Of a stretch of 64,000 nucleotides of DNA, positions 24,299-50,644 are shown one piece after another (the stretch's first letter is position 1; each line of letters starts with the position of its first letter). Position numbers and translations under genes: made by a program. The stretch spans positions 41,044,001 to 41,108,000 of the forward strand of contig OX597821.1 in the NCBI GenBank assembly GCA_951406725.2. Reading direction: 5' to 3'. Below the pieces are notes generated by a model that saw only the letters and a list, made by a program, of their open reading frames with translations, did no database searches and was not told the origin of the DNA. Origin of the DNA: Octopus vulgaris. Its lineage: Eukaryota.

Positions 24299-24638
24299 GA
24301 AGATGATGATGTATTCCATAACAATGGTATTCTCTACATCTCCCTCAGGTTTCTTTTTCACAGACGACATTGAATATTGTTTTAGTAAGAACTTCCAACC
24401 ATTTCTGGTGGGAGGGGGCACTGCCATCACTGCTGACCATATGTGTGATACCTTCCCCAAGAATCTATTTGGTTGTATCTTGAGGATTAAAACTCTAATG
24501 TCTTTTTTTTGTTCATTAGATAGTTGCACTGTCTGCTGTTCTTGAACTGCAAAAACTTAACTTTTGTAATATGGCATATTGGAATGGTGAGGAATCTAAG
24601 TGATGCTGCATCATTCTTATGTTTACTGGAGACATATA

Positions 24639-24734
<96 letters not shown>

Positions 24735-24881
24735 AGTTGTATACTGTCAACTTAACATGACAGTCCCATAAAGGGAATCACACCACCGCTATTTAGCCCT
24801 AGGAAGCATCAACGCTTCCTGTCAGCCTTGACACATTTCCTGTGTCCTTATGTTTACAAAGGGGAGACAAGCACCCCCATC

Positions 24882-24957
24882 CAGCTAAGCCTGCACCAAG
24901 AGACATGTTTCTGAGTCTTGCTCGTCATCAGTCTGGTGTAGCATGGCCTGCTAGCTG
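24882..24957 (-). ncRNA. Type I hammerhead ribozyme, best-preserved copy
   Basis: Minus strand: CUACACCAGA-CUGAUGA-C-GAG-CAAGA-CUC-A-GAA-ACAUGU-C-UCUUGGUGCAG. Long stem I extended by CAGCUA/UAGCUG; predicted cleavage after GUC between 24902 and 24901. Confidence 0.75.
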
Positions 24958-27123
24958 AAGATACCTGTCTAGACTTTGTAAACACATACATCTATATATA
25001 TATATAATTTCAGTGAAGCAAATTCACTGATCACCAAAAATAGAAATATTAAATTTCTAAATATTTATAAGCAGTAGTGGAATGATAGAACAGTTGCATA
25101 CTGTCAACTTAACATGGCAGTTCCATAAAGGGAATCAGGAAATATCATCATCATCATCATCGTTTAACGTCCGTTCTCCATGCTAGCATGGGTTGGACGG
25201 TTCGACCGGGGATCTGGGAAGCCAGAAGGCTGCACCAGGCTCCAGTCTTATCTGGCAATGTTTCTATATATATATAAACTGCTCTCTCAAACTTGTATTC
25301 CTTTCTTTCTTTTGTGTGTGTGTCTGTCTGTCTATCTATCTGTCTGTCTGTCTATTTATCTATCTATTTATCTATCATCCTTATCAACATCATCATCATC
25401 ATTTAAGTTTCCTTTTCCATGCTTGCATTAGCTAAATTGTTCAACCGGAGCTAGCAAGTCAAAGACTGCACCCAACTCTTCTATCTGTTTTGGTCTGGTT
25501 TCTACAGCTGGATGCCCTTCCTAATGCCAACCACTTAACAGAGTGTACTGGGTGTTTTATATATGGCACCAGTACCAGAGCTTTTCACGTGGCATCAGCA
25601 AGGGTGTATGCTGCTTACTCAACTACAGGACAGGTGAGTGCATGTGTTTAAGAAGTCTACTTTTCACCTGATTGGTTTGCAACTCAATTCCACAGAGTGA
25701 AACCTTGAACAAGTTTCTTCCACAATAACCACAAATCAAATGAAACCTTTGGACTGAAATTTAGTAAATGAAAAGTGTACGGAATCCCATCAAGGGATTA
25801 TCCATTTACTTGAGAGGCTGATGTAATCAATCATCCAATTTAATACTATATTGCTCCTGGCTGTCTTTAATAGACTCCACTCTTTTGCAACCATTTGAAC
25901 CAACCAGGTCTTCTGCCTTAGAGACCCTAAAAAAGGGGGTCATGACACTTCCCATCTTCCTTTGAGAAAGCTAGGATAAAATCATAATACATTGTTTCCT
26001 CATTATTCTTAAAGGGAATTCTGACTTTTTACAATGTTTCTTCTCAATTTTCTTCCATAGATTCTCTGTTGGTTGTCTTTTGCTTCTTATACTGGCTTCT
26101 GAAGGATCAAGAAGCTGTTCGATCCAACAACGGATGACATTCTTTACTCTTTCGAAATTTTTATCTTTCTTTGCCACAGTCCTCTCAAACTATTCAACAT
26201 GGATCTCATCTGGCTGATAGTATCACATCATGGTGAACAAGTTTTATTCATTGAGATTTGGTATTTATTCTTTGGTAAGAATATGTAGACATTGGATGAA
26301 AGATGAAGGAAGATATCATTGGTTTCTTTTGGCCAAATCTGTGTACAAGCCAGCCTAGTGAATAATAAAGTAGATCTGTGCACAGCAAGGAAATCTCTCA
26401 TTATTATATTTCAAATGTTATACAAATCAAAGTTGAGAATTATTTAAGTCAACTAAATGACTTTTAGAAATGAATAAATATTATACTATATCATTTAGTT
26501 AATGAAAATACTCCTACAGTTTAAATTGTTGCAAAATATTCAATGTTATTGTGTATGAAAGGAATATATTGATAGCATTAAAGCAATGAAACCTTTACAG
26601 GTGAAACAGTATGGTGGGTGGAATGAGTGAAAACCAATATTCATGTGTAATAAATAAAACTATTCCAATAAGTCTTGTGACCCTGGCTGCAAATCTATTC
26701 ATTGCTGTGAGAATTCGATGGAAGTTTTGGATATATTCTATCATGTCAATGACCTTATCCATTTTTCTATTGTGGCATGAATGGAAAGGTCTGAAATATA
26801 GAAGATTTTCCATGTATCTTGATCCCAAATCATCCCATCAGTGAGCTTTAACCTATCATGATCCAGTATAACAACAACATCAATTGTAAGGTTTGGCCTA
26901 CCTTGACACCATCTGGGGAAAACACTTGAAGGAAGGGGTAAAGGAATTTGAAGATTTTTCTATTTTGACTTGGGAAGCAAAGAATGATTATTTTTCAAAT
27001 TCAAAGCAATTCCCTTTTGAAATCAATCATTATGGTTTGAATATTTTATTTATTATTAACGTACTTTATATTGTTGCAGTTTATCCATTTGGATTCAATT
27101 ATGAGTGATGAGGATGATGATGG

Positions 27124-29903: not shown

Positions 29904-29944
29904 ATGCATCTGATGATGGCTTAAATGGCCGAAACGTTGGAGTC
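29904..29944 (+). ncRNA. Minimal hammerhead motif
   Basis: CUGAUGA-U-GGCU-UAAAU-GGCC-GAAAC-GUU. Intact core, 4-bp stem II, palindromic AACGUU; stem I pairs poorly. Confidence 0.55.
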
Positions 29945-30119: not shown

Positions 30120-30617
30120 AAATGAAGTAAGAGAAATAGCTCAGAGTGGTCACTGGTATGTGCCCAACATAGACAAATACAGGTATATCAAATACAATAC
30201 AGTATAAATTCTTGATTTATTAAAATAATCTCATCCAGATGATACATCATAATTACCAAACAGCAATTATTAGGAGTTCCATATGAGAAGGAGCGATAAT
30301 CTCAAGAATTCTCCAATGTTGACATGTGACTAAAGAAAAAGAGAGGCATATGTCTAGAGATAAGAGGACAGTCATAGATGCATGTTTCTGCCTCAGTAGG
30401 TGTCATCAGCCCAACAATTGTCTTGTTTCACTTAACTCCAGCAGCCTAGGAACATAGTCATATGCAAAAACGAATAGAATACATTTATGTCCTAAAAATG
30501 TGAACATTTTTATAAATCAAGAATTTATATTGTTTGGTATTTAATATACCTGTATTTTTCTACGTTGTTCAAATACATTCCACTGGCCACTCTGACTTAT
30601 TTCTCTTATCTCATTTT
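30120..30617. mobile_element. Penelope-like pLTR relic: inverted arms of about 105 bp enclosing a degenerate hammerhead (30372-30416, minus)
   Basis: 30120-30227 is an imperfect reverse complement of 30507-30617. The interior minus strand reads GGG-CUGAUGA-C-ACCU-ACUG-AGGC-A-GAAA-CAUGCA. Confidence 0.6.
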
Positions 30618-31783: not shown

Positions 31784-33325
31784 ATCATCATCATCATGTT
31801 CACACATATGACTGTTCACACACATGCTTCATACAGTCTATCTTTGACTCTGAGTGAGAGGCCTTTTGTTACCAGCAGAGGTAGGAGCTCTCTGAACTTT
31901 GGCCAGGCTATTCTTATTCTAGCAGCTACACTCTGAGAGCATCCACACCCACTACTGACTTGGTCACCTAGATAATGGAAGCAATCAACTACTTGTAGTT
32001 TTTCCCCTGGCATGTGATGGAAGCTGTTTTCTTCATATTTTCAGTGTTTATTGCTCCTGAGCATTTACCACACACAAAAACTATCTTCCCAGTTAGCCTT
32101 TCTTTGATATTGCTGCACCTCATATGTATCCATAGCTTACACCAGGTACATCATATGGAGTTTCTACCTACACCTTTTCTACAGATCTAGCAGGGCCATC
32201 TACCTGAAGGGATTTGTGATTTTTCTGCCTACTAAGACTTCGGTTTTGGCTAAATTGACTCTAAGGCCCTTAGCTATTTCCCCTCTGGCTAAGTAAACCT
32301 ATCTCCTAGCTTCCCTTCTGGATATCTGATACAGTTTCCTGCTACCACCATTCTTTCAGTCCTTCCATGCCTGTTTCATTTCCCTAATAGCCCTGTCGAC
32401 TACATTGTTCCTCCACTACATTAACTTAGGTTGAGAGGGGACATTGCACCATCCACAGATCTGGTCAGTAGTCCTCAACAGGTTGTCCTGTAGGAATCTT
32501 CAGTTGCCTTCCACACTTTGTGATGCTATATCCTCCTCTTTTTTGTCAAAAGCTTTGAGTAATACATCTCTAAATCTCTGTCCATTCACAGGATCCTTGA
32601 GCTTCCAGATCCCTCTTTTCCATGCTGTTTGTCTTCTGGGCATCCATTTAGCCCTGGTCTTGAAGTCGCTAACTACTAAACTATGTTGTGAGGTGTATTC
32701 TTCACCTGGGAAGATTTTGGCATTTATAAGTAGCCATCTTTCCCATTTCCTGGCAAGAATGTAGTCAATTTGACTAGTGTGTCCACCAGACTGGTAGGTG
32801 AACAGGTGACTGGCAGGTTTCCTGAAGTTAGTATTAAAAACCGTAATATCATTTGCATCACAGAACTCCAGCAGCCTGGTTCCCTCCTCATTGCAGGAAC
32901 CAAATCCATAGCCACCATGTACACCATGGAATCTCCCTACATGTTGTCCAACATGATCACTGAAGTTGCCAGCCACAAAGTGAAGGTCCTTGTCATTTGT
33001 TGACGAGGTAATGTGCAAGATGGTGTCATAAAATCGGTCTTTTTGTGCATCCGGTAGCCCTGGTTGAGGGGCATAAGCCAAGATAATGGTTGCTAATCCA
33101 TGTTGCAGAACTAATCTAAGCCTAAGTATTTTATCCCAGACTCTAACCATCTCGATTACCTTATCAACCCATTTCTCTGCAAGAAATATACTCATGCCGC
33201 CAACCCCGTCAGTGTTCCCTGCCCAGAAAATCTTATTACCTATGTTCTTTGCCTGTGAGGAACCCAGCAGAACTTCCCTTCCACCTTACTTCTTGGATGC
33301 AACACAAATCTACACGTCTCTGCTC
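31784..33325 (-). pseudogene. RTE-clade LINE ORF2 relic: APE endonuclease, linker, RT C-terminal region with PHD finger; RT core deleted
   Basis: APE motifs DLCCIQEVRW, AYAPQPG, GFGSCNEEG..LLEFC, SQIDYIL, SQHSLVV; then KGLRVNLAKT, a C4HC3 finger and VVDCFHYLG...RIRIAW. Stops and frameshifts present; (GAT)n tail at 31784-31797. Confidence 0.92.
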
Positions 33326-49389: not shown

Positions 49390-50644
49390 TTAGGTTTTTC
49401 CAAAAATAACGGCCACTCTAAGTGTTGTGTTTTGAAACGCAATTTTATCATAGTATTTTAATTATATTTTAGGTGAATTTTGACATATTCAATAATTGAT
49501 GTATGTTCTTAAATAATTTTCTGCTTATTTCAGACAGAAAACATTCTTGAAGCATAGGCGCCATAAATTATGAACATGACAAAAAAGGACTATCGCTTAC
49601 TTTTCTTGCATGAGTTCAAGCTTGGGCACAGTTCCTCCTAAACTGCTACCAATACCAATAGAGCATGGGGAGAGGGGTCTACAAGTGATCGCACAGTACA
49701 AAGGTGGTTTCAGAAATTTCATAGTGGTGATGAGAGCCTTGAAGATGAAGAAGGTAGAGGACGGTCATGCAGTCTTGACAATGAACAATTGAAAGCAACT
49801 GTTGAACAAAACCCACGTCAAAGTGTCAGAGAAATGTCTCAGGCATTTGGTATCGGTATTGCAACAGTCTTACGCAATCTGCAGAAGATTGGTAAGATGA
49901 AAAAGCTTGAAAAATGGGTACTGCATGAGCTCAATGAAAATTAAAAAGTTTGGCGTTTTGAAGTGTGCTTGATGCTCTTTCTGCAAAACACCAATGATCC
50001 CTTTCTTGACTGAATAGTCACTTGTGACAAAAAGTGATCCTTTGGCTTGATCGTGATGAATCCCGCCAAACATTTCTCAAAACCAAAGTTGCATCAGCAA
50101 AGGATTATGATGACTGTCTGGTGGTCTGCAATTGATGTTGTCCATTACAGCTTTCTGGAAGCCAATCAGAGCATTACAGCAGAGGTTTACTGCAATCAAC
50201 TCACTGAAATGTATGCTTACTTGGAAAAAATGAGACCTGCATTGGTGAATCGGTGTGGCCCATGTCTGCTCCATGATAGTGCAAAGCCACATGTTGCAAG
50301 AATGATGCTGCAGAAACTCTCAGACTTGGGATACGAGACTTTACCCCATCCTCCATATTCTCCTGATCTTTCACCCACAGACTACCATTTTTTTAAGCAT
50401 TTAAACAAGTTTTTAAGTGATAAAACTTTCAACTCCAAACCAGAGGTGGAATCAGCTTTCAAAGCATTCTTAGCATCAAAGCCAATAAGTTTTTATCAAA
50501 GAAGCATAAATAATCTCGTTGATTAATGGCAGAGATGCATAGATGTTCATGACTCATACTTTGACTAATCAAAACATTTCTATTGTTAATTTTTCCAGAA
50601 TAAAATTGTTTCTGAAATCAGCCATTATTTTCAGAACACCCTAA
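49390..50644 (+). mobile_element. Full-length mariner (DD34D) transposon, cecropia/Hsmar1-like
   Basis: TA TSDs at 49388-49389 and 50645-50646; imperfect TIRs TTAGGTTTTTCCAAAAATAACGGC / GCCATTATTTTCAGAACACCCTAA; length 1255 bp. Confidence 0.93.
49570..50568 (+). pseudogene. Mariner transposase pseudogene
   Basis: MNMTKKDYRLLFLHEFKLG..., WVLHEL (WVPHEL), IVTCD, LLHDSAKPH, HPPYSPDLSPTDYHFF. At least five premature stops and a deletion/frameshift near 50040. Confidence 0.93.

What the first reader, a model, noticed from the sequence alone, without database searches (positions are those of the whole stretch)
24731..25140. Near-intact hammerhead with a C-A pair closing stem II, inside a direct-repeat unit of about 357 bp
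Seen: all core nucleotides, a GUC site, palindromic stem III ACAUGU, and a stem I of about 9 bp plus a distal 6-bp helix. A segment of about 50 bp (CAGTTG.ATACTGTCAACTTAACATG...GGGAATCA) repeats at 24734 and 25091. Base pair 10.1-11.1 is C-A rather than the usual G-C, and the same CUGAUGAC...AGAAACAUG signature recurs independently at 30372-30416. Inference: a family-specific core variant rather than decay, which may cleave as a dimer through the palindromic stem III.
Basis: partly seen in the sequence, partly recalled or inferred. Interest (0 to 1): 0.8.

Follow-up and report, generated by a model that had tools for sequence, protein, structure and literature searches.

The report
Hammerhead retrozyme with conserved C-A mismatch
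This is one slightly damaged copy of a common 355-base repeat whose hammerhead RNA motif has a C-A mismatch where nearly all hammerheads have a G-C pair; the mismatch is the inherited norm in three repeat families of this genome, so intact copies likely still cut their own RNA, probably as pairs, which is untested.

Summary
Confirmed. The minus strand at 24957-24882 holds a type I hammerhead with all core bases, a GUC site (cut 24902/24901) and C10.1·A11.1. It lies in a 357-nt unit plus a 47-nt repeat of the unit's end: one copy of a dispersed, partly tandem, non-coding family matching non-LTR retrozymes. C·A is not decay: 26 of 31 copies chosen by whole-unit similarity have it (5 U-A); among 793 exact-core copies one has G-C. 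A sister clade has U·U, A-U or G·U. Two further families (one holding the 30385 copy; one about 60% identical) keep C·A while stems I, II and the stem III palindrome change compensatorily; U1.7 and the last loop-2 A stay. This argues for a selected, working variant that cleaves best as a dimer. Corrections: this locus has only one hammerhead, its stem I carries three off-family substitutions, and the 30385 copy is decayed. Precedent is close: a U·U at this pair is published for axolotl retrozymes and microbial hammerheads. C·A was not found in eight literature searches. Cleavage and circular RNA are not shown. New variant of a known kind.

The parts
24729..25137 (-). Retrozyme-like insertion, family A: 47-nt 3' piece of one unit followed by one whole 357-nt unit (1.13 units), GC 39.8%
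25091..25137 (-). Upstream partial unit (5'-truncated), 44 of 47 identical to the unit's 3' end
24734..24780 (-). 3' end of the whole unit; one of two recurring insertion ends of the family lies just beyond it
24882..24957 (-). Type I hammerhead with extended stem I
24925..24931 (-). Core C3-A9 (CUGAUGA)
   Evidence: conserved in 29-31 of 31 copies per position
24912..24924 (-). Stem II: C10.1 (24924) opposite A11.1 (24912), three Watson-Crick pairs, loop 24920-24916 ending in A
24903..24908 (-). Palindromic stem III segment ACAUGU, predicted 6-bp intermolecular helix
24901..24902 (-). Predicted cleavage site after GUC (C17 = 24902)
   Evidence: sequence; cleavage not shown
24895..24895 (-). 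U1.7, predicted tertiary partner of the last loop-2 A; in this copy probably drawn into the shifted stem I
24849..24986 (-). Long imperfect hairpin arm with the hammerhead at its tip in the predicted circular fold
24634..24733 (.). (AT)n and (AG)n microsatellite abutting the element's 3' end; likely insertion site or tail
30370..30416 (-). Decayed C·A hammerhead of a second, older family B (unit about 390 nt, copies about 72% alike)

Best explanation
The stretch is one copy of a dispersed, partly tandem, non-coding 350-357-nt repeat family carrying a type I hammerhead whose 10.1-11.1 pair is an inherited C·A mismatch, and it likely works as a non-LTR retrozyme whose intact copies are predicted to self-cleave best as dimers. 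Inferred cycle: read-through transcripts of tandem copies bring two hammerheads together through the palindromic stem III; each cuts after GUC; the unit-length RNA is ligated to a highly self-paired circle; a Penelope-type reverse transcriptase/endonuclease copies it from two preferred start points about 170 and 220 nt downstream of the cut site, giving inserts with fixed 3' ends, variable 5' ends and frequent inversions. C·A takes the first step of a four-step helix II, the G-C of the next step and the U1.7/loop-2 A contact compensate, and the weakened core would favour dimer cleavage over re-cutting of the circle. The window copy is an old insert with one hammerhead and a damaged stem I, probably impaired. 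Shown: anatomy, copy statistics, covariation. Inferred: cleavage, dimer, circle, helper enzyme.
For: C·A in 26 of 31 copies picked by whole-unit similarity, U-A in 5, A11.1 in 31 of 31. Exact-core family A copies: C..A 332, non-C first base 440, C..not-A 21, G..C 1; reversed controls 0. Family C (about 59-60% identical to unit A over 252-340 nt in 2 of 20 loci): 519 copies, first 100 listed, by hand 75 C·A, 17 U-A, 0 G-C. Family B: A11.1 in 20 of 22, with pair 10.3-11.3 C-G 9 versus G-C 6. Stem II covaries on 21 distinct hand-picked rows: score 0.410, 0 of 500 shuffles, best slid control 0.195. U1.7 in 39/44, 17/19, 10/11 and 22/23; last loop-2 base A in 42/44, 19/19, 10/11, 22/23. Loop 3 is AU or UA in 43 of 44, AUAU, CCGG, UGCA, UCGA in other lineages, self-complementary in 21 of 23 family C rows; duplex -4.6 kcal/mol versus +6.0 as a hairpin. 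Units fold as circles at z -4.9 to -8.5 in 5 of 5. Tandem arrays with period 350-357. Intact RT plus GIY-YIG Penelope-type elements are in the genome. Contigs of runs labelled as three organisms cover the core with no other letter listed at A11.1. Precedent: axolotl U·U retrozyme cleaves 22% as monomer and much better as dimer (PMC7229834).
Against: No cleavage, circle or RNA end is shown. Only 3 of 27 loci hold two or more same-strand cores, so most copies could dimerise only in trans. Copies are old: mean 89.8% identity, highest pair 96.3% of 34 units; no young source copy was found. No helper is identified: unit A has no similarity beyond AT-rich stretches to the intact elements fetched. 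The opposite strand also folds well (z -2.8 to -7.0). Position 10.1 varies (C, U, A, G), as a bulged base would. Pattern counts demand an intact core and only the first 100 places are listed; covariation rows were hand-picked and related. A Penelope element transposed in vitro without hammerhead cleavage (PMC11167929). Coral retrozyme monomers cleave well alone, so the dimer may not be needed.
Confidence: 0.72

Rival explanations
1. Shifted numbering: the C is the extra unpaired base that Penelope hammerheads carry between A9 and 10.1, the invariant G-C is the true 10.1-11.1 pair, and the A is a second insertion before G12. Same element, different active-site geometry.
For: The next pair is G-C in 38/44, 19/19 and most B and C rows; the first base varies; Penelope-type hammerheads with the extra base exist in this genome and window (PMC4209133).
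Against: Counting C·A gives the canonical 6-bp helix I and 4-step helix II (PMC4209133) with U1.7 and the loop-2 A in place; the 3' base is nearly fixed within clades (A in 31/31; U in a 100/100 clade), unlike a free bulge.
Confidence: 0.13
2. Vestigial ribozyme: C·A inactivated the motif in a founder and the repeat spreads without cleavage, carried by a Penelope enzyme.
For: G10.1-C11.1 is among the most conserved pairs (PMC3088659); hammerhead cleavage was dispensable in one in vitro Penelope system; no activity data here.
Against: Core, GUC site, tertiary bases and palindromes are kept across families about 40% diverged while all three stems changed compensatorily.
Confidence: 0.08
3. The units are solo pseudo-LTRs of an autonomous Penelope element not yet found, not a free retrozyme.
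For: Fixed 3' ends, tails and inverted partial copies as in Penelope elements (PMC8557442); retrozymes are proposed to derive from pLTRs (10.64898/2026.07.22.740005).
Against: Tandem units abut with no ORF between; of the open frames of 170 codons or more in loci L001-L115 only L088 was Penelope-like and it is a separate broken fragment beyond a microsatellite. Flanks were mostly 0.6-1.5 kb.
Confidence: 0.07

Closest known systems
Axolotl retrozyme Rtz_353 with HHR_Amex2 (Cervera and de la Pena 2020, PMC7229834)
   Same: About 350-bp tandem unit, type I hammerhead, mismatch at the base of helix II as family norm, better cleavage as dimer, coexisting Penelope elements
   Different: U·U there; here C·A is dominant with U·U, A-U, G·U in a sister clade; loop-loop bases appear kept here; mostly dispersed copies; expression not shown here
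Mussel (Mytilus galloprovincialis) non-LTR retrozyme, 350-390 bp (PMC7229834)
   Same: Unit size, low GC, self-paired circle prediction
   Different: Said to lack most loop 1-loop 2 conserved bases; its 10.1-11.1 pair is in a figure and a supplement I could not see
Natural U10.1-U11.1 hammerheads (Perreault et al. 2011, PMC3088659)
   Same: Non-canonical pair at the start of stem II in natural hammerheads
   Different: U·U is named the best-tolerated mispair; C·A is not mentioned in the passages read
Minimal Penelope hammerheads (Cervera and de la Pena 2014, PMC4209133)
   Same: Palindromic stem III, dimer cleavage, an odd base after A9
   Different: They keep G10.1-C11.1 next to G12, have long helix II and short helix I, and flank an RT-endonuclease ORF

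Membership tests
Type I hammerhead ribozyme | Core CUGANGA and GAAA with NUH site | tested here: met
Type I hammerhead ribozyme | Helices I and II with covariation, open helix I | tested here: met
   this copy's helix I is damaged
Type I hammerhead ribozyme | Helix III (short and palindromic in animals) | tested here: met
   stable only as a predicted duplex
Type I hammerhead ribozyme | G10.1-C11.1 (consensus feature; natural U·U exceptions are accepted members) | tested here: not met
   1 of 793; hence filed as a variant
Type I hammerhead ribozyme | Loop 1-loop 2 contact bases (U1.7, last loop-2 A) | tested here: met
   sequence level only
Type I hammerhead ribozyme | Rfam gathering score | tested here: not met
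   best RF00008 12.1 bits versus 48.5; no type I model at E up to 10
Type I hammerhead ribozyme | Site-specific self-cleavage | not testable with these tools
   needs bench assay
Non-LTR retrozyme | Type I hammerhead in a 170-400-nt unit, GC under 45%, non-coding | tested here: met
   350-357 nt, 39.8% GC, no listed ORF over the unit
Non-LTR retrozyme | Tandem copies | tested here: met
   3 of 27 loci with two or more cores; dimers and trimers
Non-LTR retrozyme | Highly self-paired unit | tested here: met
Non-LTR retrozyme | Accumulates as circular RNA | tested here: inconclusive
   no run on record as RNA; contigs only
Non-LTR retrozyme | Mobilised by a Penelope-type enzyme | tested here: inconclusive
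   intact elements present, insertion anatomy fits, no shared sequence
Minimal Penelope (pLTR) hammerhead | Long helix II, short helix I, G10.1-C11.1 next to G12 | tested here: not met
Minimal Penelope (pLTR) hammerhead | Flanks an RT plus GIY-YIG ORF | tested here: not met
   within the flanks fetched

The most novel reading that the evidence does not exclude
C10.1·A11.1 is a selected tuning device kept across three retrozyme families, with G-C actively avoided: a protonation-sensitive wobble that lacks the G10.1 metal ligand (ligand role recalled), makes cleavage depend on dimer formation or pH, and so protects the finished circle. It would be a lineage-wide alternative hammerhead core that standard models miss.
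Probability: 0.2. Interest if true: 0.65.

Novelty: new variant of a known kind. Interest (0 to 1): 0.42.

Why it matters
It offers a natural series at the hammerhead's second most conserved pair (C·A, U·U, A-U, G·U, U-A, and canonical G-C families in the same genome) that can be assayed in a day and tells how far tertiary contacts and dimerisation rescue the core. Rfam does not detect it and descriptors demanding G-C would not, so hammerhead counts in such genomes are too low: 927 exact C..A matches versus 168 for a canonical pattern of different gap width. The element type and a mismatch at this pair are already known.

Tried and rejected
Rfam: no hammerhead among 144 window matches at E up to 1; only 12.1 bits on the local stretch. 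The repeat finder was swamped by microsatellites. Expression: no RNA holder listed; 21 of 24 runs are only guessed to be RNA. Contigs of four such runs cover the ribozyme, three contigs bridge the unit junction, and summed depth is far higher 3' of the cut site, but contigs cannot show strand, ends or level, tandem DNA gives the same junction, and no silent control was laid, so none of this is counted. One further guessed-RNA run gave a single contig. Helper search: a Pfam accession was not in the library; the L088 protein found a young intact Penelope-type family with a different minimal hammerhead and no similarity to the unit. Outside the genome: of 128 metagenome and viral pattern matches examined (120 of about 160 estimated, plus 8), 1 had stems I and II, with a non-palindromic loop 3. 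Tree (84 rows, bootstrap unsettled, long-branch root): U11.1 copies form a 100/100 clade containing the single G-C copy; ancestry of C·A is likely but not shown by a rooted test. CpG decay as the origin of C·A rejected (decay turns C·A into U-A, symmetric in family B: 10 U at 10.1, 9 A at 10.2 of 22). Lunse et al. 2017 not held; supplement of PMC7229834 unreadable; no 10.1-11.1 data seen in PMC9901934 passages.

Full report
Observation. The minus strand reads stem I, CUGAUGA, C, GAG, loop CAAGA, CUC, A, GAAA, C, AU, GUC, stem I. C10.1 is 24924, A11.1 24912, C17 24902. The direct repeat is 47 nt, 44 identical, 357 apart. The second signature at 30409-30385 is present. Rfam gives no hammerhead in the window and 12.1 bits against a cut-off of 48.5 locally.

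The element. The window lies in a 2.80-Gb assembly of 227 contigs, microsatellite-rich; an octopus-like animal is my recalled guess, not a result. The 410-nt query has 2725 candidates, 40 scored, 71 matches. Units are 350-357 nt, 39.8% GC, non-coding, and occur as single copies, 1.x-mers, dimers and trimers, often with an inverted partial copy. On the ribozyme strand, inserts end at two recurring points, just after the unit end used here or about 50-55 nt further, sometimes at (CT)n or (AT)n, while 5' ends vary. The window copy is 47 nt of one unit plus a whole unit, so it has one hammerhead. Five units fold as circles at z -4.9 to -8.5 against 25 shuffles each, with the hammerhead at the tip of a long arm; the opposite strand scores -2.8 to -7.0. 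Copies are old: 34 units average 89.8% identity, at most 96.3%. Three of 27 loci have two or more same-strand cores.

Is C·A decay? No. Among 31 hammerheads from loci chosen by whole-unit similarity (3 duplicate loci of 30 dropped) 26 are C·A and 5 U-A, with A11.1 in all. Genome-wide exact patterns with stem GAG/CUC: C..A 332, non-C first base 440, C with another partner 21, G..C 1, reversed controls 0. The first 100 of the 440, counted by hand: U·U 48, U-A 24, A-U 18, G·U 6, G·A 2, A·A 1, U·C 1. Those with U11.1 are a sister subfamily, 74% identical to the C·A units, forming a 100/100 clade that contains the single G-C copy (bootstrap not settled, root uncertain).

Other families. The 30385 copy belongs to family B (1733 candidates, copies about 72% alike, unit about 390 nt, no similarity to unit A outside the ribozyme). 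Of 22 aligned rows 9 are C·A, 9 U-A, 20 have A11.1; C-to-U at 10.1 (10) and G-to-A at 10.2 (9) are symmetric, as CpG decay from C-G predicts, and pair 10.3-11.3 swaps C-G for G-C. The window's B copy is itself broken at two pairs. A free-stem pattern finds 927 C..A cores, control 0, revealing family C: period 354-357, about 59-60% identical to unit A in 2 of 20 loci, stems I and II formed in 22 of 23 rows. With both bases free it has 519 matches; first 100 by hand: 75 C·A, 17 U-A, 3 C·U, 2 C-G, 2 G·A, 1 A·A, no G-C. Canonical G-C hammerheads also exist in the genome, 168 matches, control 2. Contigs of three large runs labelled as organisms A, C and D (two studies; one may be the source sample) cover the core with no other letter listed at A11.1 and a minority U at 10.1, and loose ends show the U11.1 form in organism C, so the variant likely predates these species.

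Structure. Stem II covaries (score 0.410, 0 of 500 shuffles, slid controls at most 0.195; 21 distinct, related, hand-picked rows); 15 of 21 rows have no standard pair at 10.1-11.1. Counting that step gives the canonical 6-bp helix I and 4-step helix II (PMC4209133). U1.7 and the last loop-2 A, a known rate-enhancing contact (PMC11875169 passages), are kept in all families (39/44, 17/19, 10/11, 22/23 and 42/44, 19/19, 10/11, 22/23; rows needed an intact core). Loop 3 switches between AU and UA with 1 intermediate in 44 and is AUAU, CCGG, UGCA or UCGA elsewhere: repeated retention of self-complementarity, the signature of dimer cleavage. The duplex is -4.6 kcal/mol, the hairpin +6.0. The window copy differs from the majority at three stem I positions (24937, 24898, 24896) and pairs fully only by shifting register, which would bind U1.7.

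Mechanism. By analogy with retrozymes (PMC7229834; sections 14 and 15 read whole, other passages): multimeric transcript, dimer cleavage, ligation to a circle, copying by a Penelope enzyme from internal start points (PMC11167929 passages; PMC8557442 passages on tails and inversions). A young intact RT plus GIY-YIG family exists here (4835 candidates, open frames up to about 1000 codons, 6.2-kb tandem 99.8% identical) but shares no sequence with the unit, so the helper is unidentified. Expression could not be established.

Comparison and novelty. The axolotl HHR_Amex2 has U·U at the base of helix II in about 60,000 copies of a 350-bp repeat, cleaves 22% in an hour as monomer and much more as dimer. 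U10.1-U11.1 was reported in 2011 and called the best-tolerated mispair (PMC3088659 passages). Compensatory changes at this pair occur in cave crickets (PMC2837043 passages). Also seen: PMC4209133 parts 1-2 of 4, 10.64898/2026.07.22.740005 part 1 of 5, passages of PMC6765202, PMC9901934 and PMC11300833. Eight searches gave no natural C10.1·A11.1 and no description of these families; figures, the PMC7229834 supplement and Lunse et al. 2017 could not be seen and may hold such a case. Of 128 metagenome and viral matches 1 had both stems. Earlier scan notes report mismatches at this pair in phage hammerheads (unchecked).

Verdict. Real feature, first reading supported, new variant of a known kind; interest 0.42.

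Noticed in passing
window 29910-29937 (+): Penelope-type minimal hammerhead core with an extra U after A9 and G-C next to G12; no GUH site follows directly, so probably decayed. Similar motifs occur in L032, L040, L063.
   Followed up: partly
L147-L149 (G000:C10:97806000-97815900 and others): Very young Penelope-type family with intact RT plus GIY-YIG frames in 6.2-kb tandems (99.8% identical) and a minimal hammerhead in the repeat (seen in L149).
   Followed up: partly
L175, L176: Separate repeat family with a canonical G10.1-C11.1 hammerhead, tandem spacing about 300 nt; natural control for assays.
   Followed up: partly
L174 (G000:C24:8296606): The only family A copy with G-C at 10.1-11.1, nested in the U11.1 clade.
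   Followed up: partly
window 50038-50523 (+): Mariner-type transposase fragment (Pfam Transposase_1, E 2e-17).
   Followed up: no
window 32503-33285 (-): LINE-type endonuclease fragment (Exo_endo_phos_2, E 0.0012, below cut-off).
   Followed up: no
window 25144-25260: (ATC)n followed by a SINE-like repeat directly beside the element's 5' end; SINE likeness is recalled, not tested.
   Followed up: no
window 30120-30234 and 30498-30616: Inverted partial copies around the family B hammerhead, the same 5'-inversion anatomy as in family A.
   Followed up: partly
L235 (Ga0179593_1282476): Lone metagenome match with C..A, 3-bp stem II and 5-bp stem I; may be chance.
   Followed up: no
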